Virus record (IMG/VR): IMGVR_UViG_2541047759_000001
From: a virus
Lineage: Duplodnaviria > Heunggongvirae > Uroviricota > Caudoviricetes
Strand: one strand, 5' to 3'
DNA length: 64,000 bases
Position 1 is the stretch's first letter. The number at the start of each line of letters is the position of its first letter. The notes beneath the pieces were generated by a model. That model was not told where the DNA came from. It saw only the letters and a list, made by a program, of their open reading frames with translations, and did no database searches. Both the position numbers and the translations under genes were made by a program. This document shows positions 10,234 through 62,170 of the stretch, one piece after another.

Positions 10234-10491
10234 ATACAGCGAACGCCATTGGTTTAGTTGGATATTTACTGTGCCGGACAAAAACGGTTTGCGGGGAAAT
10301 CTTAGTTAAGTAGAATGACTGCGGGTGCTTGAGGCTATCTGTCTCAGGCATGAACACCAAAAGGCAGATAGAGAAAAGCCCCAGTTAACATTACGCGTCC
10401 TGCAAGACGCTTAACATTAATCTGAGGCCATATCTATGCGACACATAGAGATTAGCCTCTTACGGACCGAAAGGTCAAGGAGAAGCAGGCT

Positions 10492-21780: not shown

Positions 21781-21925
21781 ATGATGCCTCTGTGTGAAAT
21801 GACGGTAAACGACGCACTTGTGCCGGCACATAATAGCAAGCACCATAATAGATCAGATTCGATTCTTGCTGTAAGTGATAATTATTCTCGTTTTCGGGTC
21901 CTTTCCGTCGATCCAACAGGTTACG

Positions 21926-21937
21926 GGGCGGCGACCT
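21926..21937 (+). other. Lambda-type cosN (GGGCGGCGACCT) with flanking cosQ-like and cosB-like sequence
   Basis: Sequence 'CAGGTTACGGGGCGGCGACCTCGCGGGTTTTCGCTATTTATGAAAATTTTCCGG' matches the lambda cohesive-end region as I recall it; lies upstream of nu1. Confidence 0.85.
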
Positions 21938-22120
21938 CGCGGGTTTTCGCTATTTATGAAAATTTTCCGGGAACCATGTCCGGTTTCTCTTCAAGTTAAC
22001 TATATGAAAAATAAAAAAAGAGGTCTTCTGTGAACCGGGCATGCACAAAAAATAGACATGTAAGCCGGACATGACCGGTTTTGTTGTGATTGTGAAGTGA
22101 GAGTTTTTGCGAGGTGAGGA

Positions 22121-22630
22121 GTGGCTACGCAGACTGAAGTTGCCAGGCATTTAAGTCTGACCGATCGCCAGCTTCGCAGATTGCAGAAATTGCCGGGTGC
22201 CCCGATATCGAATAAGCGAGGGCAACTGGATCTGGATGCCTGGCGCGATTTTTACATATCGTATCTGAGAAGAAGTAAAAACGATGTGCCTGATGGCGAT
22301 AGCGAAGACGACTATGAGGAGAAATTGCTTATTGCCAGATGGGAACTGACAGCAGAACAGGCTGTTACACAGCAGTTAAAAAATGAGGTGTCAAAAGGAA
22401 AACTTATTGATACCGGGTTCTGTATTTTTGCTCTCAGCAAGCTGGCAATGGCGTTATCCAGTACGCTTGATTCCATCCCTTTATCCATGCAGCGACAGTT
22501 TCCTGATTTAACACCGCGCCATCTTGACCATCTGAAAACCCTTATTGCGAAGGGGGCAAATCAGTGTGCGCGGGCGGGGGATAAATTACCGGATTTACTC
22601 GATGAATATATCAGAGCAACAACTGAATAA
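22121..22630 (+). CDS. nu1: Terminase small subunit, Nu1-like
   Basis: N-terminal HTH and 'FCIFALSKLAMALSSTLDSIPLSMQRQFPDL' resemble lambda Nu1; GTG start with GAGGTGAGGA RBS. Confidence 0.8.
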   Translation: MATQTEVARHLSLTDRQLRRLQKLPGAPISNKRGQLDLDAWRDFYISYLRRSKNDVPDGDSEDDYEEKLLIARWELTAEQAVTQQLKNEVSKGKLIDTGFCIFALSKLAMALSSTLDSIPLSMQRQFPDLTPRHLDHLKTLIAKGANQCARAGDKLPDLLDEYIRATTE

Positions 22631-32201: not shown

Positions 32202-32641
32202 ACTTTGCCCTCAGACTGGCGCGTGAGATGGGGAGACCCGACTGGCGCGCCATGCTTGCCGGGATGACATCCACCGAATATGCCGACTGGCACCGTTTTT
32301 ACCGCACGCATTATTTTCAGGATACCCAGCTGGATATGCATTTTTCCGGGCTGACGTACGCTGTACTCAGCCTGTTTTTTTGCGATCCGGATATGCATCC
32401 CTCTGATTTCAGTCTGCTTGTCCCCCGGCATGAGGAAGAGCAGGTGGAGAGGCCGGATGAGGACAAAATGCTGATGCAGAAAGCGGCAGGACTTGCCGGA
32501 GGCGTCCGGTTCGGTGGGGACGGAGGGCGCGATATTTTATCGTCTGCGGATGTGGCGGATGTCATGGTGGATGATGCCGCATTAATGATGGCTTCAGCGG
32601 GGATTCCGGGAGGTGTGAGATATGTCCCAGCCGGTTGGTGA
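31770..32641 (+). CDS. G-T fusion produced by programmed -1 ribosomal frameshift
   Basis: GGGAAAG heptamer near 32175; the -1 frame continues open to 32641 and overlaps the H start. Confidence 0.7.
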
Positions 32642-40800: not shown

Positions 40801-41588
40801 CAAAAAACGGTATTCCCTATGTGGCCGGGATTGGCGTGGGGATTGAGGATGTTGATGGTCAGACCCTGAGTAACATTCTGCTGCAGGCTGACCGTATCGC
40901 GATGATTACCCCGGAGAATGGCAACACCACGCCGCTGTTTGTGGCGCAGGGGAATCAGCTGTTCATGAACGACGTGTTCCTGAAGCGACTGTTTGCGGTG
41001 AGCATCACGTCATCCGGCAATCCTCCGACGTTTTCCCTGACGCCGGATGGCAGGCTGACAGCCCGCAATGCGGATATCAGTGGAGCCATCACGGCGAATA
41101 CCGGCACGCTCAATAATGTCACCATTAACGAGAACTGTGTCATCAGAGGGAAACTGTCTGCAAACCAGATTGAAGGCGATCTCGTTAAAACAGTGGGTAA
41201 GGCTTTCCCCCGTGACTCCCGTGCACCGAAGCGTTGGCCATCAGGAACCATTACCGTCAGGGTTTATGACGATCAGCCGTTTAACCGGCAGATTGTTATT
41301 CCGGCGGTGGCTTTCAGCGGTGCCAGACATGAGCGGGAGAACAGCGATACTTATTCGTCATGCCGCCTGATAGTGAAGAAAAACGGTGCTGAAATTTATA
41401 ACCGTACCGCGATGGATAATACGCTGGTTTACAGTGGTGTTATTGATATGCCTGCTGGTCGCGGCCACATGACGCTGGAGTTTTCTGTATCAGCATGGTG
41501 GGTAAATGGCTGGTATCCCACAGCAAGTATCAGCGATTTGCTGGTTGTTGTGATGAAGAAAGCCACTGCAGGCATCACGATTAGCTGA
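37896..41588 (+). CDS. J: Central tail fiber / host specificity protein J
   Basis: 1230 aa; N-terminus '[39 protein letters not shown]' matches lambda J. Confidence 0.9.
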
Positions 41589-51341: not shown

Positions 51342-52571
51342 ATGAGCAGAGCACTTAACAAACTGAGCGATACACAGCTGAGGAAAATCAACGGCACACC
51401 CGCCCAAAAAACAGCCTTTCTTAATGACGGTGGAAACCTGAGCGTCAGGCATTCAACCAGTGGCCTTTTAACCTGGTATTTCACTTACAGGGCCGGAACG
51501 GGAAGGGGGGCACCACCGGAACGCATTAAGCTGGGAAATTATCCTGATCTGAGCCTGAAATCAGCCAGGGAAAAAGCCGCCCAGTGTCGCGCATGGCTGG
51601 CAGAGGGGAAAAATCCACGTCATGAAATGAATTACACCGTACAGGAAGCGTTAAAGCCGGTAACGGTTGGCGATGCGCTCACCTACTGGCTTGAGTCGTA
51701 CGCAAAGGAAAACCGCGTGGATTATGCCGCCCTGAAAAAGCGCCTTAATAATCACGTAATACAGCACATTGGTGCTATGCCGCTGGATAAATGCGAGCTA
51801 CGGCACTGGCTGGCCTGTTTTGACCAGGTGGCAAAGCGAACGCCTGTTACTGCCGGATTCTTGCTACAGACGTGCAAACAGGCGCTTAAGTTCTGCCGGA
51901 GGCGGCGCTATGCAATCAGCAACGTTCTTGATGATATGAGTGTGGCGGACGTTGGGAAAAAACCGGATATAAGCGAGCGCGTCTTAAGCACCAAAGAACT
52001 TGGCGAATTATTGCAGGCACTGGACAAAAAAATATTTTCCCCTTACTACGTCGCACTAATCCGCCTCCTGATTGTTTTCGGATGCCGGACGGTAGAACTG
52101 AGGTTATCGGAGATCAGCGAGTGGGATTTTACCGAAATGCTCTGGACCGTGCCGAAAGAACACAGCAAAACGAAGGTGGCAATATTCCGGCCCATACCGG
52201 AAGCAATACTGCCGTTCGTCACGCAGCTGGTGGAGCAGAACAGGCACACGGGCTTATTGCTGGGGGAAGTGAAACAGGAAACAAGCGTGTCGCAGTACGG
52301 CAGATTAGCGCACAGGAGGCTAAAACACCCTCACTGGTCACTGCATGACATCCGGCGCACCTTTACAACGATGCTGAACGATTTAGGCGTGGATCCTCAC
52401 GTCGTGGAGCAGCTTACAGGTCATCAGATGCCAGGGATGCAACGAGTCTATAACCATTCCCGTTATCTGGATGCGAAACGTGACGCGCTGGATATGTGGA
52501 CGGAGCGGTTAGGGATACTGGCGGGAACACATGAAAACGTAACCACATTGCCAATAGCCAGAGAAATATAA
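51342..52571 (+). CDS. int: Tyrosine integrase, P4-like family
   Basis: 409 aa; C-terminal 'HDIRRTF...GHQ...RVYNHSRY' catalytic region; adjacent to attL. Confidence 0.88.
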   Translation: MSRALNKLSDTQLRKINGTPAQKTAFLNDGGNLSVRHSTSGLLTWYFTYRAGTGRGAPPERIKLGNYPDLSLKSAREKAAQCRAWLAEGKNPRHEMNYTVQEALKPVTVGDALTYWLESYAKENRVDYAALKKRLNNHVIQHIGAMPLDKCELRHWLACFDQVAKRTPVTAGFLLQTCKQALKFCRRRRYAISNVLDDMSVADVGKKPDISERVLSTKELGELLQALDKKIFSPYYVALIRLLIVFGCRTVELRLSEISEWDFTEMLWTVPKEHSKTKVAIFRPIPEAILPFVTQLVEQNRHTGLLLGEVKQETSVSQYGRLAHRRLKHPHWSLHDIRRTFTTMLNDLGVDPHVVEQLTGHQMPGMQRVYNHSRYLDAKRDALDMWTERLGILAGTHENVTTLPIAREI

Positions 52572-52936
52572 TTTTTTTTGCGATTTTTCAGGATGCGGAC
52601 AACGTGAAACAACGAGACACAACGACGAACAACAAGGAACAAAATGGAACAACGGGTTAAAAATCAGCCATCGTAATAACCATTTGATTTTTATAGGTGT
52701 ACTGTTTTTTTATACACTGGCGAATCACTCTTAAAAATATGTAAAAAAGGCGTAAAAGTAAAATTTTATGCCTTTGCATCATAATGAATTAAAAGAGTTT
52801 TTATTCTCATTTCCCCTGCTTCTGTAAAACGACCGCCGCCAGTGTTTGCCATTCCACAAACACCCTGACACAATCCGACACAACCCAACCCAATAATCCA
52901 CCCAATGACTCTTTAAGAAACAACAAAGGGGGAATT

Positions 52937-53125
52937 GTGTTAAGCACAGATCGCTTTATACGTGAAAAAGAATGTCAGCAACTTACAGGCCTGAGCCGCT
53001 CATGTCGGTACCGCCTGGAAAAAGCCGGACAATTCCCATCACGGCGTAAGCTGGGCGGTCGTTTCGTTGGCTGGTCTTTATCCGAAGTTCTGGCATGGAA
53101 GGACAGCTGCGAGGCAGTTCACTAA
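52937..53125 (+). CDS. alpA: AlpA-family transcriptional regulator
   Basis: 62 aa; 'IREKECQQLTGLSRSCRYRLEKAGQFPSRRKLGGR...GWSLSEVLAW' typical of AlpA. Confidence 0.85.
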   Translation: MLSTDRFIREKECQQLTGLSRSCRYRLEKAGQFPSRRKLGGRFVGWSLSEVLAWKDSCEAVH

Positions 53126-53542
53126 TCAGGCTGGCGGCACACAGCCGCCACCCATCCACTAATACAGAGATCTAACCATGAATACTGGATATTCTCCCGA
53201 ACAAGGGCGGGGCTTCGTTCGTCCTGAAAAACAGAATCTGCAAAATTTTGCCGAAATTATTCCGGTTATTTCCGGCCTTACTGGCGGGAGTGAAACCAAT
53301 ATTGTTAACGCCAGAGCGTTGCAGATGTTTGATGATAAAAAGGGAGTAAATTTAACTTACACCCCTGACGGCAATCAGAATATGAGCATTATCTCTGAGT
53401 CAGGTTTCTACAAACTAATAAAAACAAAAAGCGCCCCGTTGCCGGAGCGCCTTTGTGAACAATTAACCTACTGCGCAAAAAATGAATCTGAGCAGTGGGA
53501 TTATATCAACCATGTGGAGAAGCGCCACAATTGCCGAATAAC

Positions 53543-53574
53543 GGGCAAAACAAAGGCCACCCGCTACGGTGGCC
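53543..53574 (-). terminator. Minus-strand intrinsic terminator ending the divergent regulator operon
   Basis: GGCCACC...GGTGGCC hairpin followed on the minus strand by TTTGTTTTGCCC. Confidence 0.6.
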
Positions 53575-53653
53575 CCTCGACACAAGCTACACGTTATCCC
53601 CAACGCATGAGCATTGCCAACAATGCCACATTTGCGGCTGGTGGGCAATGCAA

Positions 53654-53842
53654 TCAGTCAGGTTCAGTTCGTTGCCATACCTGCAATGAGCGCTTTTCCC
53701 TGTACTCTTTAAGGAATTGCTCAAGGGCAAAAGCACATGGCGCGAATCTTTCTGATTCATGCTCTATCTTTCTGCGCCGTCTTTTCCGTGCCGGTGATAA
53801 TGTTTTGGTCAATTCTTTATCGGTCATTGTGTTGTCCTGCAT
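53654..53842 (-). CDS. Small basic hypothetical protein
   Basis: 62-aa ORF downstream of the RHH gene on the minus strand; 'ARKRRRRK' basic patch. Confidence 0.4.
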   Translation of the reverse strand: MQDNTMTDKELTKTLSPARKRRRRKIEHESERFAPCAFALEQFLKEYREKRSLQVWQRTEPD

Positions 53843-53884
53843 AGCAATGCGCCGTAGTTACTCACACCACGGCGCTGGTGATGG

Positions 53885-54064
53885 TTACTCCTGCTCTTTG
53901 GCCTTGCGGCGCTGGCGGCGTTTGATCTCGCCTTGCATTGACGCAATGATGAATTGTGATGTGCTTTCGCCTGATTCTTTCACTGATTCCATGGCGTTTA
54001 CTATTTCGTGTGGTACACGAGCCTTTAGAGCTTGTGATTTTGCGTTTGTTGTACCCGTTGCCAT
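53885..54064 (-). CDS. Ribbon-helix-helix (Arc/CopG-like) DNA-binding protein
   Basis: 59 aa; 'LKARVPHEIVNAMESVKESGESTSQFIIASM' fits the RHH pattern; divergent from the rightward promoter. Confidence 0.6.
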   Translation of the reverse strand: MATGTTNAKSQALKARVPHEIVNAMESVKESGESTSQFIIASMQGEIKRRQRRKAKEQE

Positions 54065-54125
54065 TTCTATTCCTCTGTTGGATTGGTGGGGGACAGTATA
54101 CACAGAAAAAGCACAAATAAAACCC

Positions 54126-54166
54126 TTGACGTGGGCCACACCTAAAGCATATAGTGGGCCACACCT
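54126..54166 (+). promoter_or_regulatory. Rightward promoter with two GTGGGCCACACCT operator-like direct repeats
   Basis: TTGACG at 54126-54131, 18-bp spacer, TATAGT at 54150-54155; 13-bp repeats at 54131-54143 and 54154-54166. Confidence 0.55.
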
Positions 54167-54263
54167 TGAGATTATCAAGGTGCATAAATGCAAAGCCCCG
54201 CAAGTGTCGTTACCACTCGCAGGGCTTCTAACCACCAACGATAGCGAAAGTATCGAGGTAGCT

Positions 54264-54464
54264 ATGTTAAATCATACCACACACCCGCAAGGGCGGGACT
54301 CGCACAACCTGAATAAATACATCTGGCGTTTTATCGCCCTGAGCACGGCACAACCGCGCGTGATTACCATTGAGGCCACCAGCGAACAGGAAGCACGCCA
54401 GCAATCTCCGGCTGGCTGCGTGATGGTATTTGCTGCCCGTATTCGTCAGGGGGTAGGCTTATGA
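54264..54464 (+). CDS. Small hypothetical protein, first gene of the rightward satellite operon
   Basis: GAGGTAG RBS 5 nt upstream of ATG at 54264; 66 aa. Confidence 0.5.
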   Translation: MLNHTTHPQGRDSHNLNKYIWRFIALSTAQPRVITIEATSEQEARQQSPAGCVMVFAARIRQGVGL

Positions 54465-54691
54465 GCCAGGAAATCACACTACAACAGGCAGCAGAACGCG
54501 CCCACCAAATCGAAGTTATTTGCGCACTGGCAGAGGATTACCCTGGCATGATGACCGACAGCGAATCAGGGGCAATCATCGGCTTACTTAAACGCCTTAG
54601 CGGTGAGGTCTGCGTATTCCTGAGCGATGAACAGGAAAGAAGAACGCTTATTTCTAACGAAAAAAAATGCGGAGGGGTACATGTGCAATAA
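54461..54691 (+). CDS. Small hypothetical protein
   Basis: 76-aa ORF, start overlapping the upstream stop. Confidence 0.5.
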   Translation: MSQEITLQQAAERAHQIEVICALAEDYPGMMTDSESGAIIGLLKRLSGEVCVFLSDEQERRTLISNEKKCGGVHVQ

Positions 54692-55115
54692 AACCACACC
54701 GGACGCAGCCGCCGCCGCACTCACTACGCTGATGCACGCGCTTATTGATATTGAATGCACGGCAGAGCTTGCGCAGGGAGAAGAACAGAAAGACCGGACA
54801 CAGTTCGCCCTGGAATGTATCCGATACATCGCAACGCGGTCGCTGAATGACGCTAAAAATATTCTTGTTGCTGATTGTGAAAATGGGGGGGTTATGCGTG
54901 ATGATCGTTTTAATTCCCTGAAACAGGAATTTTCCGGCGTTCCTGATGATGCGGCTGATGCGCTTTCGTCAATGCCAGAGCTTATTAGAGCGGATTTTTT
55001 CTTACTTTCCACGAGAGAATATAAATCAACGGGGCTTGATGTACTGAATATCGCCGCCGATTATGCTGATTTCGTGACAGAGGTTATTTTAAGAAAAACG
55101 ACGGACGGGGATTAA
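54681..55115 (+). CDS. Hypothetical protein
   Basis: GGAGGGG RBS before ATG at 54681; 144 aa. Confidence 0.55.
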   Translation: MCNKTTPDAAAAALTTLMHALIDIECTAELAQGEEQKDRTQFALECIRYIATRSLNDAKNILVADCENGGVMRDDRFNSLKQEFSGVPDDAADALSSMPELIRADFFLLSTREYKSTGLDVLNIAADYADFVTEVILRKTTDGD

Positions 55116-55116
55116 T

Positions 55117-55350
55117 ATGCGTGATATTTACCACGAAACAATAGACCGCGCATTTCTTGCACTTTCTCACAGTGAAAATATGTTGGAAATATTGCGCATA
55201 TGTCTTGAAACGCTTGGAGATAATGAACGTGATAAACAGAAATCAAGGATTGTCACGGCATTAATAACGCTTCTTGAGCCTGTAATAAATGAGTTGCAGG
55301 AAATAGAGACATTACACGACCAGTATAAAGCGCCCCACACCGGAGAATAA
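55117..55350 (+). CDS. Small hypothetical protein
   Basis: 77-aa ORF starting 2 nt after the upstream stop. Confidence 0.5.
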   Translation: MRDIYHETIDRAFLALSHSENMLEILRICLETLGDNERDKQKSRIVTALITLLEPVINELQEIETLHDQYKAPHTGE

Positions 55351-55355
55351 AAATA

Positions 55356-55655
55356 ATGAAACTTAAATATTCTGGCTTAACTGCCAGTGGCAAAACTCGC
55401 ACTAAATTCATGCGCGGTGATATTTACCGCGATAAGTACGGCGGCACGGTAATGATTAAGGGCGTGGAGGAACGGCGCGTAACCTACCGTCGTGAAGGCT
55501 ACGAATATGATTGCGTGATGCCTGTTTATCAGTTCGACCGTGATTTTTCTCTTGTGCAGGCCGTACCGCGTAACGTGCCCACCAGCAGGGAGAAAGCACG
55601 CGCCAATATTCAGAAGATGAAAACCATGATTAAAGGATTCAGGGGTAAAAAATGA
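55356..55655 (+). CDS. Small basic hypothetical protein
   Basis: 99-aa ORF overlapping the primase start. Confidence 0.5.
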   Translation: MKLKYSGLTASGKTRTKFMRGDIYRDKYGGTVMIKGVEERRVTYRREGYEYDCVMPVYQFDRDFSLVQAVPRNVPTSREKARANIQKMKTMIKGFRGKK

Positions 55656-57406
55656 AACTGGCACCGAACGTAAAACAGCAGTCACGCGGCATAAAACACA
55701 AAGGAACAGAAGTCATTATTTTTGCGGGTAGTGATGCCTGGGCACACGCGAAACAATGGCAGGAACATGATGCGCGTATGGCCGGAGATAATGAGCCTCC
55801 TGTGTGGCTTGGGGAGCAGCAGTTATCAGAACTGGATAAGCTGCAAATTGTGCCGGAAGGCAGAAAATCCGTGCGCATATTCAGGGCCGGATATCTTGCG
55901 CCAGTAATGATAAAGGCGATTGGCCAGAAGCTGGCGGCGGCAGGCGTACAGGATGCAAATTTTTACCCTGATGGTATGCACGGTCAGAAGGTGGAGAACT
56001 GGCGCGAATATCTGGCCCGTGAGCGCCAGAATCTTTCTGATGGTCTGGTCATTGAGCTTCCGGTAAAGCAAAAGGCGCAACTTTCGCAGATGGCGGACAG
56101 TGAGCGCGCGCAGCTGCTTGCCGATCGCTTTGATGGCGTTTGCGTACATCCTGAAAGTGAAATCGTTCACGTATGGCGCGGCGGGGTATGGTGTCCGGTC
56201 AGCACAATGGAACTTAGCCGCGAAATGGTGGCGATCTATTCAGAGCACAGGGCCACTTTCAGCAAGCGCGTAATCAATAACGCCGTGGAAGCGTTAAAAG
56301 TTATTGCCGAACCAATGGGCGAGCCGTCCGGCGATTTGCTGCCGTTCGCCAATGGTGCGCTTGACCTGAAAACGGGGGGATTTTCCCCGCACACGCCGGA
56401 GAACTGGATCACCACGCACAACGGCATTGAGTACACGCCACCAGCACCAGGGGAGAACATCCGCGATAACGCGCCAAACTTTCATAAATGGCTTGAGCAC
56501 GCAGCCGGAAAAGACCCGCGCAAGATGATGCGTATATGTGCCGCGCTGTACATGATTATGGCGAACCGGTACGACTGGCAGATGTTTATTGAGGCCACCG
56601 GAGACGGCGGGAGCGGTAAAAGTACATTCACGCACATAGCCAGCCTTCTGGCAGGGAAACAGAACACGGTAAGCGCTGAAATGACATCGCTTGATGATGC
56701 TGGTGGACGTGCGCAGGTTGTCGGGAGTCGTCTTATCGTCCTGGCTGACCAGCCGAAATATACAGGCGAAGGAACGGGCATCAAGAAAATCACGGGCGGT
56801 GACCCCGTGGAAATTAACCCGAAATACGAAAAGCGTTTCACGGCTGTAATCAGGGCGGTGGTGCTGGCGACCAACAATAACCCGATGATATTCACCGAAC
56901 GGGCCGGAGGTGTGGCACGTCGTCGCGTGATTTTCCGTTTCGACAATATCGTCAGTGAGGCCGAAAAAGACAGGGAGCTACCGGAAAAGATCGCGGCTGA
57001 AATCCCTGTCATTATCCGCCGATTGCTGGCGAACTTTACCGACCCTGAGAAGGCACGGGCTTTACTACTGGAACAGCGTGACGGTGATGAAGCACTGGCA
57101 ATAAAGCAACAGACGGATCCGGTTATTGAGTTTTGCCAGTTCCTGAATTTTCTGGAGGAAGCGCGCGGCCTGATGATGGGGGGCGGTGGCGATTCAGTGA
57201 AGTACACGACCAGGAACAGCCTTTACCGCGTCTATCTGGCGTTTATGGCATACGCAGGCAGGAGCAAACCGCTAAACGTAAATGACTTTGGAAAGGCTAT
57301 GAAGCCTGCCGCAAAAGTTTACGGACATGAATATATTACGCGGAAAGTTAAGGGGGTAACGCAGACTAACGCAATAACAACAGACGAGTGCGACGCGTTT
57401 TTATAA
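55652..57406 (+). CDS. Primase-helicase (P4 alpha / D5-type, P-loop NTPase)
   Basis: 584 aa; Walker A 'GDGGSGKST'; N-terminal primase-like region; followed by the iteron origin. Confidence 0.85.
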   Translation: MKLAPNVKQQSRGIKHKGTEVIIFAGSDAWAHAKQWQEHDARMAGDNEPPVWLGEQQLSELDKLQIVPEGRKSVRIFRAGYLAPVMIKAIGQKLAAAGVQDANFYPDGMHGQKVENWREYLARERQNLSDGLVIELPVKQKAQLSQMADSERAQLLADRFDGVCVHPESEIVHVWRGGVWCPVSTMELSREMVAIYSEHRATFSKRVINNAVEALKVIAEPMGEPSGDLLPFANGALDLKTGGFSPHTPENWITTHNGIEYTPPAPGENIRDNAPNFHKWLEHAAGKDPRKMMRICAALYMIMANRYDWQMFIEATGDGGSGKSTFTHIASLLAGKQNTVSAEMTSLDDAGGRAQVVGSRLIVLADQPKYTGEGTGIKKITGGDPVEINPKYEKRFTAVIRAVVLATNNNPMIFTERAGGVARRRVIFRFDNIVSEAEKDRELPEKIAAEIPVIIRRLLANFTDPEKARALLLEQRDGDEALAIKQQTDPVIEFCQFLNFLEEARGLMMGGGGDSVKYTTRNSLYRVYLAFMAYAGRSKPLNVNDFGKAMKPAAKVYGHEYITRKVKGVTQTNAITTDECDAFL

Positions 57407-57419
57407 TTTTTTGTAATTG

Positions 57420-57650
57420 CTGTCTACCCTGTCTACCTGAGTAAAGAAAAATACATTTAATTCAGTGCATTAAGTTAGGTAGATAGCCTTTTTTTACTGT
57501 CTACCCACTATCTACCCTCTCTACCTGATTTTACCTGAATCAGACAGGGAGGTAGACACGGGGTAGATAGTGGATAAAAGCACTCTACCCCGCTGAAAGC
57601 CGCGCCATTACTGGCATGAGGGCCACTAAGGTAGATAAGGTAGACAAGGG
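57420..57650. repeat. Satellite origin of replication: about 11 copies of the GGTAGA(C/T) iteron in both orientations
   Basis: Copies of GTCTACC / GGTAGAC / GGTAGAT immediately downstream of the primase-helicase gene. Confidence 0.75.
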
Positions 57651-57694
57651 GAGGCACAACTCAAAACTTTTTAAACGAGGGGGTAAAAATAAAT

Positions 57695-57973
57695 ATGCAC
57701 ACTTCAGGGAAATTTAATAAATCACTCAAAAAACGCAGAGACAGAACAGAACCGAAATATCGCGCGTTAGACATGACAGAGCACGCTTTAAAGGTGGCAA
57801 TCAGAACGATAGACCGCCACGCGGGGGAAGGATACGCGAAAGCACATCCCGAACTGATAAGCGCATTCATGACCACGACGGCGGCAAATTTTGCCACGCT
57901 GACAGAGCGGGAGATTGCCGAAGCGGAACAGGTAACAACCATCAACGTTAAAACCGGAGAGGTGGAATCATGA
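57695..57973 (+). CDS. Hypothetical protein
   Basis: GAGGGGG RBS upstream; 92 aa. Confidence 0.45.
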   Translation: MHTSGKFNKSLKKRRDRTEPKYRALDMTEHALKVAIRTIDRHAGEGYAKAHPELISAFMTTTAANFATLTEREIAEAEQVTTINVKTGEVES

Positions 57974-58392
57974 CAGCACAGATAGCAGCTTACGGGCGGC
58001 TGGTGGACGACCCGCAGGTAAAACAGACCAGCAAGGGCACACCGATGACGCTGGCGCGTATGGCGGTCCCCCTTCCGTGCAGCCAGGCAGATGACGGAAC
58101 GGCGACGATGTGGTTATCCGTCCTGGCATTTGGCAGACAGGCCGAAGCACTGGAAAGGCACCGCAAGGGTGAACTCCTGAGCGTGGCGGGTAACATGCAG
58201 ATCAGCCAGTGGACTGGGCAGAACGGAGAAACGCGGCAGGGCTGGCAGGTTATCGCAGACAGTGTAATCAGTGCGCGAACGGCGCGACTGGGCGGCAAAA
58301 AAGGTCAACAGGGCCAGGCTACTGACGCGCTGAACAGGGCAAAACAACAGGCGGGGAATGATGATCCGTACGGGGATAACATACCGTTTTAA
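57970..58392 (+). CDS. ssb: Single-stranded DNA-binding protein
   Basis: OB-fold N-terminus, Gly/Gln-rich linker, acidic C-terminal tip 'DDPYGDNIPF'. Confidence 0.85.
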   Translation: MTAQIAAYGRLVDDPQVKQTSKGTPMTLARMAVPLPCSQADDGTATMWLSVLAFGRQAEALERHRKGELLSVAGNMQISQWTGQNGETRQGWQVIADSVISARTARLGGKKGQQGQATDALNRAKQQAGNDDPYGDNIPF

Positions 58393-58408
58393 GCGACGAG
58401 AGACAGAA

Positions 58409-58430
58409 GCCGGAGCAATCCGGCTTTTTT
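58409..58430 (+). terminator. Intrinsic terminator after ssb
   Basis: GCCGGAGCAATCCGGC hairpin followed by TTTTTT. Confidence 0.75.
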
Positions 58431-58807
58431 ACGGGGCCTCCTGGCGGGGTGGGCCTGAACACGGGGCGGGAAGCGCGGAAAAAAGCGCATTTTTGTGATT
58501 TTATCGTCATCATCATCATGAGCGTAATTTATTGTTTTTAATTGTTTTGATGCAAAAAAGATGATGGTTGTGGTTAATTTTTGTTCGACATCTTTGCAGG
58601 CAGATAAAAAAGCCCGATAAGGTCAGAGGTGGCTTATCGGGCTTTTGCATATGAGGCTTTTTGGTGCACTGACACACATGATCGGGATAATCATTTCATA
58701 ATTTGCAACACAACTCAATATCATTGCACAAAATGCAATCCTGATTATAATCAGAGCTGGATGAACATCCAGTTATGATTTTTTAAGTCAAAGAGGAATT
58801 TCTTACT

Positions 58808-59014
58808 ATGGCTGAAGAGAAAAAAGGCGGTATTTCGGTGTACATAAGCCCCGACATCGTGAAGGCGCTCAAGGAACGCCACCAGCAGAACGTAAAAGCA
58901 GGCATTGCGGCAGGACTTGATCCGCTGGCGATGGTTGAGCCGTCAACAGGCTGGCAGGTACGCGCCTATTTACGCGCGGCGCTGGGTATGAATCAGGTTC
59001 ACGGGGGTGAATAA
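58808..59014 (+). CDS. Small hypothetical protein preceding the satellite capsid gene
   Basis: AAGAGGAA RBS; 68 aa; stop overlaps the capsid gene start. Confidence 0.5.
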   Translation: MAEEKKGGISVYISPDIVKALKERHQQNVKAGIAAGLDPLAMVEPSTGWQVRAYLRAALGMNQVHGGE

Positions 59015-60069
59015 TGACAGTAAAAGCAATGGCACTTAACACTAACCAGCTTTTTGCGTACCTGAATCGCGGGGATATTGCGGAATTTAAATTCAGTCCG
59101 CTGTTTACCACGCTGTTTTTCCCGAACGTGGCGACATTCAGCACGCAAAACATCATGCTGGATACCCTGGACATTGAAGAAGTCACCATGTCGGCGTTTT
59201 GTTCGCCTATGGTGGGTAGCCAGGTTCAGCGCGATAAAGGGTACGAAACCAGCACGATTAAACCTGGCTACATGAAGCCAAAGCACGAAATCGATCCAAC
59301 GAAAACCATCATGCGCATGGCTGGAGAAGATCCGGCACAGCTTAACGACCCTACCTATCGCCGTATGCGCCTGATTACTGGCAATATGCGCCGCCAGATA
59401 AACGCCATAAAAGCGCGCGTGGAATGGCTGGCGGTAAATGCGGTAACGACCGGAAAAAACATCATTGAAGGCGAAGGCATAGAGCGCTATGAAATCGACT
59501 GGAAGATACCGGAAAAAAACATCATAGAGCAGGCCGACGGGAAAAAATGGTCAGAGCAGGACAAAGAAACCCACGATCCAATCTATGATATCGAACTATA
59601 CGCCGATCAGGCTGGTTGCCCCGCAAACGTCATGATTATGGGCGCTGAGGTATGGCGAACGTTACGCAGCTTTAAAAAATTCCGTGAGCTGTACGATCTT
59701 TCCCGTGGTTCAGAGTCCGCCGCAGAGCTGGCCTGTAAAAACCTGGGCGAAGTGGTGAGCTTTAAAGGCTATCTGGGCGATATTGCCCTTATCGTCTATT
59801 CCGGCAAATACACTGACAGCGACGGCACAGAAAAATATTTCCTTGAGCCTGATTTGCTTGTCCTGGGCAACACCAACAATAAAGGGCTGGTGGCCTATGG
59901 TGCGATTATGGATCAGGACGCAGTAAGAACGGGCGCAACGCAAAACATGTTTTACCCGAAAAACTGGATTGAGGACGGCGATCCGGCGATTGAGTACGTG
60001 CAGACGCACAGCGCACCGCAGCCGGTTCCGGCAGATATTCGCAAATTTGTTACCGTCAAAATTGGTTAA
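59014..60069 (+). CDS. Major capsid protein, divergent lambda E homologue
   Basis: Shared blocks with the prophage E: 'EDPAQLNDPxYRRxRxIT', 'NIIEQADGKKWSEQD', 'VVSFKGYxGDxAxxV', 'DGTEK...LVLGNT'. Confidence 0.85.
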   Translation: MTVKAMALNTNQLFAYLNRGDIAEFKFSPLFTTLFFPNVATFSTQNIMLDTLDIEEVTMSAFCSPMVGSQVQRDKGYETSTIKPGYMKPKHEIDPTKTIMRMAGEDPAQLNDPTYRRMRLITGNMRRQINAIKARVEWLAVNAVTTGKNIIEGEGIERYEIDWKIPEKNIIEQADGKKWSEQDKETHDPIYDIELYADQAGCPANVMIMGAEVWRTLRSFKKFRELYDLSRGSESAAELACKNLGEVVSFKGYLGDIALIVYSGKYTDSDGTEKYFLEPDLLVLGNTNNKGLVAYGAIMDQDAVRTGATQNMFYPKNWIEDGDPAIEYVQTHSAPQPVPADIRKFVTVKIG

Positions 60070-60080
60070 CGGGGGATTCT

Positions 60081-60416
60081 ATGGACACTCCATACATTGA
60101 GTTATTTGCAGGCAGTCAGCAGGTCGCCACGACGCTGGTACATTTTGCCGCTGATGCTGGCGTTATTCAGGAATTTACCCCGCTGATGCTGGCGGACAAT
60201 GGCGAGTTTAAGCCGTGGGATGGTAAGGAATCTGGCAAGGCTGTTTATCTGACCTCGTACCCTGTGGACACGTCAAAGCAGAAATCAGCACAGTGTTACA
60301 AGACGGGGATATTCAATATTGCCGCCGTTAACTGGCCTGAGAGCGTCGACACCGATGCGAAAAAATGCGCCGCCTTTGCGGGTTCCGGCGTATCCGTTCA
60401 GCCGCTGGCCCGATAA
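60081..60416 (+). CDS. Head decoration protein, divergent lambda D homologue
   Basis: 111 aa immediately after the E-like gene; 'VNWPESVDTDAKKCAAFAGS' resembles the D C-terminus. Confidence 0.7.
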   Translation: MDTPYIELFAGSQQVATTLVHFAADAGVIQEFTPLMLADNGEFKPWDGKESGKAVYLTSYPVDTSKQKSAQCYKTGIFNIAAVNWPESVDTDAKKCAAFAGSGVSVQPLAR

Positions 60417-60428
60417 GCAGGGGGAACG

Positions 60429-60842
60429 ATGGCAACGAATGAAAGCATCATGACGCTACCGCTGGCGAGTAAATTTAAAGCCGAAGCGCGGGCAATGGCT
60501 GACAGAGGTTTATCAACCTATGAGGCCGTATATCAACTAAACAAACTGGAAGAGCAGGACAAGCCGCGCGCTGATGCGATTATGGCGCTTCATGAGCATA
60601 AAGACTATCAGCCGCTGTTACGTGCAATGGCAAACGTGCCATGTATTAGCGTCGATAATGCTCGTGAAATCCTGAACATGACCATAGAGCAGGAGCGCCC
60701 AAAGGTTGCACCAGAGCTTACCGCAGCCTTTGAAAACTTTATGGACATGCACAGCCCGCAAGCCGTATCAGCTGGCATGGCATACGATGGCAGAAACCAG
60801 GGCGATGACGGCGACATCGATCGCATACTGAAAACCATCTGA
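60429..60842 (+). CDS. Scaffold-like protein related to the C-terminal (Nu3-like) domain of the prophage C gene
   Basis: 'ADAIMALHEHKDYQPLLRAMANVPCISVDNAREILNM' and 'FENFMDMHSPQAV' parallel the C-protein repeats and its C-terminus. Confidence 0.6.
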   Translation: MATNESIMTLPLASKFKAEARAMADRGLSTYEAVYQLNKLEEQDKPRADAIMALHEHKDYQPLLRAMANVPCISVDNAREILNMTIEQERPKVAPELTAAFENFMDMHSPQAVSAGMAYDGRNQGDDGDIDRILKTI

Positions 60843-60848
60843 GACAAG

Positions 60849-60870
60849 GCCGGAGAAATCCGGCTTTTTT
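60849..60870 (+). terminator. Intrinsic terminator after the scaffold-like gene
   Basis: GCCGGAGAAATCCGGC hairpin followed by TTTTTT. Confidence 0.75.
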
Positions 60871-60902
60871 ACGGGTCCTTCCTGGAATTATGGCCCGTTA
60901 CG

Positions 60903-60914
60903 GGGCGGCGACCT
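60903..60914 (+). other. Satellite cos copy 1: cosN GGGCGGCGACCT with cosQ-like upstream and partial cosB
   Basis: 'GGGTCCTTCCTGG...GTTACGGGGCGGCGACCTCGCGGGTTTTCGCTATTTATGA' is near-identical to the prophage cos at 21926; no ATGTCCGG repeats downstream. Confidence 0.8.
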
Positions 60915-61003
60915 CGCGGGTTTTCGCTATTTATGACGTTTTTCCGTGAAGGTGACACCACCACCACTTGATTAATATTTAACCATGCAGTTAAGGTAAC
61001 ATT

Positions 61004-61438
61004 ATGATTGATAAAGCTTGTTTTGTAAGTCAGCAGGAAATAGCTGAACATTTCAAGGTTAACAGAACCACTATTCGCGCATGGACCAAACAGGGGATGC
61101 CGTATCTTAATGCGGATCGCGGAAAGTCTGGCGGTTATCACATCGGGCATACATTGCTTTGGTCTTCAGGTAAAAGCCGTCTTGAGGCCATCAGATATCA
61201 CGTAGAAACCAGTGCGCTGGAAAAAATTATGTTTGCCAGGCTGCTTTCATCTGAGCGTGACGAGTACTCCAGTGAAGAAACAGAACATCGATTTGATGAA
61301 GGTTTGCAGATTTACGGCTATTCACCGGAAGATGTGAGCAAGGCACGAAATAAAATGGCTGGCTTTCTGGCTGGGTGGCGTCATGCCGTAAGCGTTCGCC
61401 GTGCCAGCATGGAGCAATCAGCCGATACAGAACAGTAA
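61004..61438 (+). CDS. Nu1-like small terminase or packaging-redirection protein with N-terminal HTH
   Basis: AAGG RBS; 'QQEIAEHFKVNRTTIRAWTKQGMPY' parallels the lambda Nu1 N-terminal HTH; lies between two inverted cos copies. Confidence 0.6.
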   Translation: MIDKACFVSQQEIAEHFKVNRTTIRAWTKQGMPYLNADRGKSGGYHIGHTLLWSSGKSRLEAIRYHVETSALEKIMFARLLSSERDEYSSEETEHRFDEGLQIYGYSPEDVSKARNKMAGFLAGWRHAVSVRRASMEQSADTEQ

Positions 61439-61641
61439 AGCCGATAACTTGTTAATCACTCGCAGCAATGCATGTGATTTGTGCACACTTTCGGTTAACT
61501 GGTTCGATGTCCGGTTTTAGTGTCTGTTTTTTGCGCATGTCCGGTTCATGGAAAGCATGTTTTTATATTTTTCATATGGTTAACTTGCAGAGAAACCGGA
61601 CATGGATCCCGAAAAATTTTCATAAATAGTGAAAACGCGCG

Positions 61642-61653
61642 AGGTCGCCGCCC
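61642..61653 (-). other. Satellite cos copy 2, inverted: cosN plus full cosB-like region with three ATGTCCGG repeats
   Basis: Reverse complement of 61530-61690 matches the prophage cos from cosQ through 'CATGTCCGGTTTCTCT' and beyond. Confidence 0.75.
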
Positions 61654-61717
61654 CGTAACGGGCCATAATTCCAGGAAGGACCCGACGACACCAGACTATC
61701 AGAACGATGGGGGCACA

Positions 61718-61999
61718 ATGACAGAAGCCGAAATACTGCGATTAATCCGCCGCGTTGCCGGAATCAGCCAGCAGGCCGACGAACAGACCACGCAGCCGGA
61801 CAGCGTGACCGCCGAAAATTATGTTCGTGTGGTTGCTGAGGTGATTCGCCGTAATGGTATCCAGCTTAATGATGTGGATATGCGCAACATACGGATCCGC
61901 GTTCTTGAAATGCTGGCCTACAATCGCCGCGTGGCACTGTATCGGGAAACGGAGAAAATTACGTACCACTGGAAGAAGCCGGAGCGGTTGCGGCGGTAA
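61718..61999 (+). CDS. Hypothetical protein
   Basis: 93-aa ORF starting at ATG 61718 just after cos copy 2. Confidence 0.45.
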   Translation: MTEAEILRLIRRVAGISQQADEQTTQPDSVTAENYVRVVAEVIRRNGIQLNDVDMRNIRIRVLEMLAYNRRVALYRETEKITYHWKKPERLRR

Positions 62000-62170
62000 C
62001 TGGTTGATATTTTCGAAATTCGCCAGCGGCGAACATCGGGGAAACCAGCCTAACCCGTTGATATTTTCGGGAACCTCAAATTGAAGAGGTCGGAAACATA
62101 ACCCGTCATATTCTGGATGCTGATAATTACCACGCAGCCCATTAAGGCCTAACCCGTTGATTCTTCCACA
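62000..62170. repeat. Four direct repeats of about 19 bp (TAACCCGTTGATATTTTCG-like) near attR
   Basis: Copies at about 62001, 62050, 62098 and 62149; followed by palindromes at 62174-62227. Confidence 0.6.

What the first reader, a model, noticed from the sequence alone, without database searches (positions are those of the whole stretch)
60871..61700. Two inverted cos copies flank the Nu1-like gene; only the inverted copy has the full cosB repeat set
Copy 1 (cosN at 60903-60914, forward) has cosQ-like and cosN sequence but lacks the ATGTCCGG repeats. Copy 2 (cosN at 61642-61653, reverse) reproduces the prophage cos from cosQ through a cosB-like region with one forward and two inverted ATGTCCGG motifs, the same arrangement as at prophage 21970-22080. 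An inverted cos pair about 740 bp apart could act as a decoy, separate initiation and termination sites, or an invertible packaging-orientation switch.
Basis: seen in the sequence. Interest (0 to 1): 0.7.

Follow-up and report, generated by a model that had tools for sequence, protein, structure and literature searches.

The report
Known satellite's two inverted packaging sites
This is the already-published packaging module (cos1, rppA, cos2) of an E. coli phage satellite almost identical to EcCICFT073; what seems unreported is that cos2 copies the packaging site of a neighbouring prophage family, and that the segment between the two sites lies flipped in one E. coli clone.

Summary
A 78-nt inverted repeat, 91% matched (60872-60949 / 61607-61684), carries two exact lambda-type cosN sites that flank a 144-aa gene.

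It is also already known. The island (about 51.3-62.5 kb) is a 97.6% relative of the PICI EcCICFT073. The gene is RppA (c1503), and the two copies are the published cos1 and cos2 (Fillol-Salom 2018, 2019). Those papers already deleted each cos and measured transfer. cos1 is the site read by the RppA-TerS complex, and its CACCACCACCAC box is the "R3-PICI" of Murialdo & Feiss 2022.

I did not find the following points in the held literature:
- cos2 is a full phage-type cos. It is 93% identical, from cosQ to the last R repeat, to functional phages PhiR12_1-5, and has the same repeat spacing as the window's prophage. CFT073 carries the same prophage 5 kb from its island.
- Every sampled E. coli island of this family has two convergent cos sites with different cosB types. 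Relatives in other genera have one.
- In 15 complete genomes from one clone the segment is precisely inverted and otherwise 100% identical.

Best reading: two alternative packaging-initiation sites with different TerS specificities. It is not a decoy, not a split start/stop pair, and not a fast switch.

The parts
60843..60868 (+). Hairpin plus T-run (GGCCGGAGAAATCCGGC-TTTTTT) after the c1502 homologue. It looks like a terminator and lies just outside the left cos.
   Evidence: Read directly from the sequence. The consensus scan did not list it.
60872..60949 (+). cos1, the left arm of the inverted repeat: cosQ 60872-60880, cosN 60903-60914, I2 60928-60936.
   Evidence: Matches the published EcCICFT073 cos1 sequence apart from the cosQ-cosN spacer (Fig S1A of PMC6739421).
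60950..60967 (+). Rpp-type cosB: AGGTGACACCACCACCAC, which is bp 48-65 counted from cosN. The CACCACCACCAC core lies at 60956-60967.
   Evidence: The core is invariant, 83-84 nt from cosQ, in 10 rpp loci from E. coli, Klebsiella, Phytobacter, Salmonella and one unnamed sequencing-run assembly, although cosN varies. Already proposed as 'R3-PICI' by Murialdo & Feiss 2022 (PMC9026076). The cos1 cosB is required for RppA-dependent transfer (PMC6739421).
61004..61438 (+). rppA (c1503), 144 aa, the redirecting-phage-packaging protein.
   Evidence: The RefSeq protein WP_000565609.1 is the same in CFT073 and in strains 100% identical to the window here. RppC structure 6hlk matches at E 5e-31, with weak hits to the lambda TerS DNA-binding domain. 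Pfam gives only sub-threshold HTH hits.
61506..61606 (-). cos2 cosB of phage type: R3 61596-61604, an A/T-rich spacer, R2 61536-61544 (inverted), and a last repeat 61506-61514 (inverted, one mismatch).
   Evidence: R elements vary in 1 of 26 columns against 19 of 72 in the spacers, across two phages and five island lineages.
61607..61684 (-). cos2, the right arm of the inverted repeat: cosQ 61676-61684, cosN 61642-61653, I2 61620-61628.
   Evidence: Matches the published EcCICFT073 cos2.
61718..61999 (+). c1504 homologue (93 aa, no Pfam family). It starts 34 nt outside cos2.
21895..22078 (+). cos of the resident lambdoid prophage: cosQ 21895, cosN 21926-21937, R3 21975, R2 22035, R1 22065-22078. 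This is the model for cos2.
22121..22630 (+). Prophage TerS, 169 aa. The C-terminal part belongs to the Nu1 family. The N-terminal DNA-binding domain is unrelated in sequence to lambda Nu1.
   Evidence: Pfam Phage_Nu1 covers residues 49-150 only. 46% identity to lambda Nu1 over the C-terminal 92 aa only. 100% identical to PhiR12_1 TerS. No PDB relative for the N-terminus.
51342..62050 (+). The EcCICFT073-type PICI as a whole, from the integrase (51342-52571) to c1504, lying between roxA and phoQ.

Best explanation
The region is the packaging module of an EcCICFT073-type phage-inducible chromosomal island (PICI). It consists of cos1, rppA and cos2.

Shown by others: RppA binds the small terminase (TerS) of lambda/phi80/21-type helper phages. 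The complex recognises the cosB next to cos1 and no longer recognises the phage's own cosB. The island is therefore packaged from cos1 while the helper is blocked.

Shown here by sequence: cos2 is a complete cos (cosQ-cosN-I2-R repeats) from a different lambdoid packaging group. That group includes phages PhiR12_1-5 and the potC/potB prophage present in this window and in CFT073. Its TerS has an unrelated N-terminal DNA-binding domain.

Inferred: cos2 is a second packaging-initiation site that does not need Rpp and is read directly by that TerS. The island would then carry two cosB specificities and could ride two kinds of helper. Because the two sites converge, both cosB elements and rppA sit in one cassette bounded by identical cosQ-cosN sequence. 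That layout lets the cassette be exchanged or inverted by exchange within the cosN-containing identity. The mechanism could be homologous or Red recombination. In principle it could also be terminase cutting at both cosN sites, since the inner fragment would then have two identical cohesive ends and could religate either way. The inversion is a rare, stably inherited by-product of this layout, not a switch.
For: Identity with the published element:
- 97.6% identity to CFT073 across the 1.6 kb, same gene order and same roxA/phoQ site.
- RppA protein identical.
- cos1 and cos2 sequences match the published ones.
- Published genetics for cos1, RppA and cos2.

cos2 is a phage cos:
- 93% identity to PhiR12_1 over cosQ-cosN-cosB.
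- Identical repeat spacing to the window prophage.
- R elements conserved against their spacers, 1/26 versus 19/72 variable columns, p = 0.02.
- The window prophage TerS is 100% identical to PhiR12_1 TerS. PhiR12 records name K-12 or E. coli C as host, so they are presumably plaque-forming phages.
- The TerS DNA-binding domain is unrelated to that of lambda.
- One island (L031) even keeps the first 9 codons of that terS next to the cos.

Co-residence:
- CFT073 has the same prophage 5 kb from the island.
- 41 of 97 rppA genomes carry this TerS type, against 1124 of 5329 others. Odds ratio 2.7, p = 4e-6, not corrected for phylogeny.

The design is conserved:
- All 13 sampled E. coli islands have two convergent cos sites with two different cosB types, in six cassette arrangements.
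- Rpp islands from other genera have one cos.

Exchange at cosN:
- A precise inversion in 15 genomes that becomes 100.000% identical over 1701 nt once re-inverted from cosN to cosN.
- All four combinations of spacer type (A/B) and post-cosN side (1/2) exist.
Against: - No experiment links cos2 to a PhiR12-type helper.
- In CFT073, deleting prophage #4 (21-type TerS) abolished island induction and transfer, and deleting any other prophage had no effect (PMC6092414). The potC/potB prophage is therefore not a sufficient helper there. It may fail to induce the island or may not be inducible.
- With lambda or phi80 helpers, cos2 is dispensable and slightly harmful.
- The co-occurrence is confounded by clonal structure.
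- The cos2-like site of RppB-type islands could not be traced to any phage.
- That RppA does not bind PhiR12-type TerS is inferred only from lack of sequence similarity.
Confidence: 0.6

Rival explanations
1. cos2 is a functionless relic. It was left by recombination between the island and a PhiR12-type phage, or by the origin of the module, and persists only because it does little harm.
For: - Deleting cos2 does not reduce transfer by lambda or phi80, and even raises it.
- The potB prophage is not needed for transfer in CFT073.
- Rpp islands in other genera manage with one cos.
- L031 and L027 show messy recombination scars in this region.
Against: - A second convergent cos with intact cosQ, cosN, I2 and a distinct cosB is kept in all 13 sampled E. 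coli islands, across six cassette types and at least five integration sites.
- R repeats are conserved relative to their spacers.
- Cloned cos2 is packageable.
- cos2 lies inside the natural variation of the phage cos family.
Confidence: 0.22
2. The inverted cos pair is a programmed invertible switch. It would set packaging direction or turn rppA on and off by flipping the cassette relative to outside transcription.
For: - Both orientations exist in nature with otherwise identical sequence.
- A terminator-like hairpin sits just outside the left arm, so expression could depend on orientation.
- There is further evidence of arm exchange.
Against: - All five sampled inverted genomes are 100% identical over 19 kb, so they represent one clone and one event.
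- Orientation is uniform within clones. The inverted arrangement was found only in that clone's island haplotype, all four CFT073 assemblies are forward, and all 16 IMG/VR contigs are forward.
- There is no recombinase gene in or beside the cassette.
- After the flip both cos units are unchanged, so the packaged content of a circular or concatemeric island does not change.
- Candidate promoters inside the cassette are no better than chance.
Confidence: 0.08
3. cos2 is an interference device. As a cognate site on a replicating island, it would draw PhiR12-type terminase away from the phage genome, or cause unproductive cutting, and so protect the host or island without serving island transfer.
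For: - PICIs commonly interfere with helper packaging.
- cos2 is a complete cognate site, and the matching prophage is often co-resident.
Against: - No data support it.
- A complete cos that terminase cuts would also be packaged, so this is hard to separate from the main explanation.
- The island already has a dedicated interference protein, RppA.
Confidence: 0.07
4. The two copies divide the work: one cos starts packaging and the other ends it.
For: Only the anatomy. Copy 1 lacks phage R repeats and copy 2 has them.
Against: - Either cos alone supports transfer, and only the double deletion abolishes it.
- Both have cosQ, cosN, I2 and a cosB.
- Termination at a lambda-type cos needs cosQ upstream in the direction of travel (established knowledge). 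The copies are inverted and only 740 bp apart.
Confidence: 0.02

Closest known systems
EcCICFT073 cos1-rppA-cos2 packaging module (Fillol-Salom et al., ISME J 2018, PMC6092414; Mol Cell 2019, PMC6739421)
   Same: It is the same element family at the same chromosomal site. RppA protein and cos2 sequence are identical, and cos1 is identical from cosN onwards, including the cosB used in the published chimeras.
   Different: The window's cos1 carries the cos2-type cosQ-cosN spacer. This lengthens the perfect identity between the arms from 25 to 47 nt. The left half of the island is a different mosaic. The papers compared the island cosB only with lambda, phi80 and CFT073 phage 4 and called both 'completely divergent'. 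They did not note the match of cos2 to the potC/potB prophage.
R3-PICI proposal (Murialdo & Feiss, Viruses 2022, PMC9026076)
   Same: Their Rpp-binding site at bp 48-65 from cosN, with bp 55-63 invariant, is the CACCACCACCAC box at 60956-60967.
   Different: They treat a single PICI cos and do not mention cos2, a second cos or an inversion. Here the box is extended to 10 loci with five or more different cosN sequences.
Lambda-like phage cos (cosQ-cosN-I2-R3-I1-R2-R1) with phage-specific cosB/TerS pairs (lambda, 21, N15)
   Same: cos2 and the prophage cos have the same order and spacing of cosQ, cosN and I2, and three R-type repeats with an A/T-rich spacer after R3.
   Different: The repeat sequence (CATGTCCGGTT) differs from the lambda R sequence. 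It resembles the 21-type CATGTCGG by one inserted base (compare the phi4 sequence). The TerS DNA-binding domain is unrelated in sequence to lambda Nu1. The island copy lacks the forward R1.
Helper-embedded PICI 11capE, which shares a 258-bp cos region at 90% identity with its helper prophage (PMC10111431)
   Same: A Gram-negative PICI carrying a long, near-identical copy of a resident prophage's cos.
   Different: That island has one such site and sits inside its helper. Here the phage-type cos is the second of two and is paired with an Rpp-type cos.
SaPIbov4/SaPIbov5 (staphylococcal cos islands)
   Same: These are islands packaged through a copied helper cos site. The 2018 paper notes that SaPIbov4 also has two putative cos sites.
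   Different: The sequences and host phylum are unrelated, and there is no Rpp. I did not examine their cos orientation.

Membership tests
EcCICFT073-type Gram-negative cos PICI | Island of about 11 kb with the order int, alpA-type regulator, primase/replication module, then packaging module, at a dedicated att site | tested here: met
   Gene order, protein accessions and the roxA/phoQ site match CFT073. 97.6% DNA identity over the packaging module.
EcCICFT073-type Gram-negative cos PICI | Encodes Rpp and no terminase of its own | tested here: met
   RppA is identical to c1503. No TerS or TerL is annotated in the island.
EcCICFT073-type Gram-negative cos PICI | Helper-dependent induction, packaging and transfer, with interference against the helper | not testable with these tools
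   Published for EcCICFT073 itself. Inferred for this near-identical island.
Lambda-type cos site (applied to cos2) | cosQ, a 12-nt cosN and I2 at lambda spacing | tested here: met
   cosQ to cosN is 31 nt, cosN is exact, and TATTTATGA follows it.
Lambda-type cos site (applied to cos2) | cosB with repeated TerS-binding R elements that match a phage encoding the cognate TerS | tested here: met
   Three repeats with the same spacing as the window prophage. 93% identity to PhiR12_1, whose TerS gene follows its cos. Binding itself was not tested.
Lambda-type cos site (applied to cos2) | Cleaved and packaged by terminase | not testable with these tools
   Published: cloned cos2 allows plasmid transfer by lambda and phi80 at a reduced level. 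The cognate PhiR12-type helper has never been tested.
Rpp-dependent cos (applied to cos1) | Conserved R3-PICI box at bp 48-65 from cosN, directly upstream of rpp | tested here: met
   The box lies at 60950-60967 and is invariant in 10 loci.
Programmed DNA-inversion switch (Hin/Gin/Cin or Fim type) | A dedicated recombinase encoded in or next to the invertible segment | tested here: not met
   Only rppA lies inside the segment. The neighbours are c1502 and c1504, and the island integrase is 9 kb away.
Programmed DNA-inversion switch (Hin/Gin/Cin or Fim type) | Both orientations present within one lineage or population | tested here: not met
   All sampled inverted genomes are one clone. All four CFT073 assemblies are forward, and so are all 16 IMG/VR contigs. 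Heterogeneity within a culture could not be examined without reads.

The most novel reading that the evidence does not exclude
In E. coli PICIs of this family the packaging module would be a swappable, invertible cassette bounded by two convergent cos sites. It would give each island two different helper specificities: here, Rpp-mediated piracy of lambda/80/21-type TerS at cos1, and direct mimicry of PhiR12/potB-type phages at cos2. Cassettes would be shuffled or flipped by exchange exactly at cosN. One possible route is terminase cutting both sites and the ends religating, which would be a recombination mechanism not described for cos sites.
Probability: 0.3. Interest if true: 0.65.

Novelty: already known. 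Interest (0 to 1): 0.35.

Why it matters
The two cos sites, RppA and their roles with lambda and phi80 were published in 2018-2019, so the finding as stated is a rediscovery.

Its value lies in a question those papers left open: why the island keeps a second cos that is dispensable, and even slightly harmful, with the helpers tested. The sequence evidence gives a concrete and cheap hypothesis. cos2 belongs to another phage packaging group that is present in 21% of complete E. coli genomes and sits next to the island in CFT073 itself.

If that is right, the helper range of these virulence-associated satellites, and of the PICI-based delivery tools built from EcCICFT073, is wider than assumed and can be tuned by swapping cassettes.

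The natural inversion also offers a handle on whether cos sites can act as recombination sites.

Tried and rejected
- Two scans of species-representative genomes for rpp relatives found nothing. I used exact-protein look-ups instead.
- I looked for the phage source of the second cos of RppB-type islands. The phage collection gave one weak hit. In E. coli genomes the matches I inspected were other islands, not prophages.
- I hoped IMG/VR contigs would end at a cosN and show which cos is cut. All 16 contigs are forward-oriented island fragments, most taken from isolate genomes, and none ends at cos.
- No paper on the PhiR12 phages is in the held library. No paper there mentions inversion of a PICI cos region, or cos2 outside the two Penades papers.
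- The consensus promoter scan gave nothing above chance inside the cassette. I therefore could not decide whether rppA has its own promoter.
- I rejected the idea that the inverted state is an assembly artefact. It appears in 15 independent complete assemblies from several countries, and the repeat (47 nt perfect, 78 nt in all) is shorter than a sequencing read.
- I rejected recurrent flipping, because the inverted genomes are one clone.
Full report
**1. The observation**

The region holds a 78-nt inverted repeat. Its arms lie at 60872-60949 and 61607-61684, are 91% complementary, and are 657 nt apart. Each arm contains cosQ (CGGGTCCTT), an exact lambda cosN (GGGCGGCGACCT, at 60903-60914 on + and 61642-61653 on -), and the I2-like TATTTATGA. 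The spacing is the same as in the cos of the prophage elsewhere in the window, whose cosN is at 21926-21937.

The nonamer CATGTCCGG occurs exactly four times in the 64 kb. Two copies are in the prophage cosB (21975+, 22065-) and two lie beside the inverted island copy (61596-, 61536+). A one-mismatch copy sits at the corresponding third position in each (22035-, 61506+). The spacings are identical in both sites: 49, 60 and 30 nt. The forward island copy has none of these repeats.

One nuance is that the phage sites also carry a forward near-copy overlapping the last repeat (22070-22078). The island lacks it, because homology to the phage stops inside that palindrome.

**2. What the element is**

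The 1.6 kb around the finding is 100% identical to nine complete E. coli genomes and 97.6% identical to CFT073 at 1387154-1388755. Annotation of CFT073, and of a strain identical to the window here, shows the same island between roxA and phoQ. The gene order is integrase, small regulator, primase, SSB, a lambda gpE-like capsid gene, a gpD-like decoration gene, c1502, the 144-aa gene, and c1504. This is EcCICFT073, the model Gram-negative phage-inducible chromosomal island (PICI).

The 144-aa protein has the same RefSeq accession in both strains. It matches the crystal structure of RppC at E 5e-31 and gives weak hits to the lambda TerS DNA-binding domain. It is RppA, encoded by c1503.

The supplementary figures of Fillol-Salom et al. 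print the sequences they call cos1 and cos2. cos1 is the forward copy running into rppA, and cos2 is the reverse complement of the second copy.

**3. What is already published**

The key published results are:
- EcCICFT073 has two cos sites.
- Each, when cloned, makes a plasmid transferable by lambda and phi80.
- Deleting cos1 strongly reduces island transfer.
- Deleting cos2 slightly (phi80) or significantly (lambda) raises it.
- Deleting both abolishes it.
- RppA binds phage TerS, blocks phage packaging, and is needed for island packaging.
- Only the cosB next to cos1 confers RppA-dependent transfer, including when it is swapped into cos2 or into phage 80.

Murialdo & Feiss (2022) proposed the Rpp-binding site at bp 48-65 from cosN. 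In the window that is AGGTGACACCACCACCAC at 60950-60967.

My comparison of rpp loci extends their proposal. The CACCACCACCAC core sits 83-84 nt from cosQ in 10 loci from E. coli, Klebsiella, Phytobacter, Salmonella and one unnamed sequencing-run assembly, even though cosN itself differs among them.

**4. What cos2 is**

Both papers state that the island cosB sequences are "completely divergent" from the phages they compared: lambda, phi80 and CFT073 phage 4, which is 21-type. That holds for cos1 but not for cos2.

- From cosQ to the last repeat, cos2 is 93.3% identical to the cos of phages PhiR12_1 to PhiR12_5 and 82% identical to the window prophage. Those two phage sites are 86.5% identical to each other, so cos2 lies inside the variation of this phage cos family.
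- In PhiR12_1 the cos is followed by a Nu1-family TerS gene. The window prophage TerS (22121-22630) is 100% identical to it.
- This TerS shares the C-terminal two-thirds with lambda Nu1 (46% identity). Its first 70 or so residues, the DNA-binding domain, have no detectable similarity to lambda Nu1 or to any solved structure.
- Across two phages and five island lineages, the R elements vary in 1 of 26 columns and the spacers in 19 of 72 (p = 0.02).
- CFT073 itself carries the same prophage, with identical TerS and TerL accessions, between potC and potB. That is 5 kb from EcCICFT073, and it has the same cos.
- In the complete-genome collection, 97 genomes have rppA and 1165 have this TerS type. 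The union is 1221, so 41 have both. That is 42% of rppA genomes against 21% of the rest (odds ratio 2.7, p = 4e-6), not corrected for phylogeny.

**5. Is the pair conserved?**

In every E. coli island of this family that I sampled there are two convergent cos sites between the c1502 and c1504 homologues. Each has its own cosB facing inwards, and the two cosB types always differ. The sample was 13 loci, with six cassette arrangements and integration sites at phoQ, clpS, thiM, yejO and hpt.

The combinations seen were:
- Rpp box with rppA, plus R repeats (the window and CFT073).
- R repeats plus a GGGGGTGGTTGTTGTT box, with no rpp.
- Rpp box with rpp, plus a GGTTGTTGTT-type box.
- A GGTGGTGGTGG box with a full-length Nu1-family TerS gene, plus another repeat type.
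- In RppB-type islands, a different cosN, with an Rpp box on one side and TTTCCGG repeats on the other.

Rpp islands from Klebsiella, Phytobacter and Salmonella have only the single Rpp-type cos within 4 kb. The second cos is therefore not an assembly artefact and is not confined to one strain. It is a lineage-wide design in E. coli.

**6. The inversion**

I built a query joining the left flank and cos to the reverse complement of the far end of the segment. It matched 20 complete genomes end to end in one piece.

In 15 of these the whole cos1-rppA-cos2 segment is inverted between unchanged flanks. In NZ_AP022049, for example, rppA is on the opposite strand to c1502 and c1504. Re-inverting that locus from cosN to cosN gives 100.000% identity to the window over 1701 nt. 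The exchange point therefore lies inside the 47-nt stretch (cosQ to just past cosN) that is identical in both arms.

Five sampled inverted genomes are 100% identical over 19 kb of island and chromosome, so they are one clone and one event. Their island's left half and chromosomal flank differ from the window's by 6-8% and 1.7% respectively. The identical packaging module has therefore also moved between islands.

The other five matches are islands of the no-rpp type. They have the R-repeat cosB on the left and a scar containing rppA 3' ends in both orientations.

All four combinations occur: A1 and B2 in CFT073, B1 in the window, and A2 in the no-rpp islands. This requires at least one further exchange within the 25 nt around cosN that A and B arms share.

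All 16 IMG/VR contigs carrying the module, and all four CFT073 assemblies, are forward.

**7. How it most likely works**

Shown by others: cos1 plus RppA redirects lambda/80/21-type terminase to the island.

Shown here by sequence: cos2 is a complete cos of a different, common lambdoid packaging group whose TerS has an unrelated DNA-binding domain.

Inferred: RppA, which mimics the lambda-type domain, probably cannot pair with that TerS. cos2 would then give the island an Rpp-independent way to be packaged by such phages. On this reading the island carries two alternative initiation sites with different specificities.

Packaging from cos1 runs rightwards through rppA, and packaging from cos2 runs leftwards. 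On a circular or concatemeric island both give the same content. This is also why inverting the cassette changes nothing essential.

The convergent layout places both cosB elements and rppA in one unit bounded by near-identical cosQ-cosN sequence. That favours exchange and inversion there. The mechanism could be RecA or Red recombination on 25-47 nt of identity. It could also be terminase cutting both cosN sites. In that case the inner fragment would carry the same 5'-GGGCGGCGACCT overhang at both ends and could religate either way. This last step follows from lambda end structure and is untested.

**8. Evidence against, and rival explanations**

The main weakness is experimental. In CFT073, deleting prophage #4 abolished island induction and transfer, and deleting the other prophages had no effect. 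The neighbouring potC/potB prophage is therefore not a sufficient helper under mitomycin C. It may not activate the island's alpA, or may not be inducible, but the result lowers confidence.

The rivals, in order of weight:
- cos2 could be a tolerated relic of recombination with such a phage. Its conservation across cassette types, and of the R repeats, argues against this.
- A programmed switch is unlikely. There is no invertase, orientation is uniform within clones, and there is no functional difference between the states.
- A decoy role has no positive evidence.
- A split initiation/termination role is contradicted by the published single deletions and by the orientation dependence of cosQ.

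**9. Verdict**

This is a correct reading of a known element, so I rate its novelty as "already known". Three details were not found in the held literature, and they turn the unexplained second cos into a testable question:
- the phage identity of cos2,
- the family-wide pairing of two different cosB types,
- a natural precise inversion and arm exchange at cosN.

Confidence that this is the EcCICFT073 cos1-rppA-cos2 module is about 0.97. Confidence in the proposed role of cos2 is about 0.5.

Noticed in passing
window 59014-60069 and 60081-60416: The island encodes a lambda gpE-like major capsid protein (Pfam Phage_cap_E, E 2e-52) and a gpD-like decoration protein (HDPD, E 2.5e-17). The same pair precedes rpp in nearly all related islands that extend far enough upstream, from E. 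coli, Klebsiella, Phytobacter and Salmonella. The 2018 paper says EcCICFT073 lacks capsid morphogenesis genes.
   Followed up: partly
window 60881-60902 versus L001 (CFT073) 10383-10404: The window's cos1 carries the cos2-type cosQ-cosN spacer (TCCTGGAATTATGGCC), whereas CFT073 cos1 has TTCCGGCATATGGAC. This looks like gene conversion between the inverted arms. It lengthens their perfect identity from 25 to 47 nt.
   Followed up: yes
L012:3576-4004; also L011, L015, with a truncated copy in L014: Salmonella islands carry a second gene of about 142 aa between the Rpp-type cos and rpp. Its N-terminus is Nu1-like (Pfam Phage_Nu1 positions 3-49, E 4e-4), so there may be two tandem Rpp-like proteins.
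   Followed up: partly
L035:2025-2963 (E. coli Z1323HEC0423, phoQ site): This island of the same family carries a full-length Nu1-family TerS (180 aa, Pfam E 2e-23) in place of rpp. It is preceded by a GGGGGGTGGTGGTGG box, which is the Rpp box on the opposite strand, and is paired with yet another cosB repeat type.
   Followed up: partly
L027-L031 (islands at clpS, thiM, yejO and phoQ sites): These islands have no rpp at all. They have the R-repeat phage-type cos on the left and a cos with a GGGGGTGGTTGTTGTT box on the right. L027 keeps rppA 3' ends in both orientations. L031 has a 69-aa chimeric ORF that joins the first 9 codons of the phage terS to RppA C-terminal sequence.
   Followed up: partly
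L005/L006 3870-4654 (RppB-type islands): The two convergent cos copies have a non-lambda cosN, and the two copies differ from each other in the cohesive-end core (GGGTACGTGTAC versus GGGTAGCCATAC). No phage source was found.
   Followed up: partly
L008, L009, L012, L015: Several Klebsiella and Salmonella rpp islands are followed directly by phage FI, head-tail and tail genes. L008 and L009 also have a truncated capsid-E gene there. These islands therefore sit inside a prophage late operon, as in the published helper-embedded PICIs.
   Followed up: no
window 1-46000: The lambdoid prophage next to potB has intact tape-measure (32622-35201) and J (37896-41588) genes in the window. The otherwise near-identical strain HM670 is annotated with frameshifts there and is offset by 19 nt at terS. 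The window therefore comes from a different strain or assembly. CFT073 has the same prophage at the same site.
   Followed up: partly
window 61997-62015 and 62051-62069: There is a 19-nt direct repeat (TAAC..GTTGATATTTTCG, 89% identical) just after c1504, near the expected right end of the island. It may be related to the att site.
   Followed up: no
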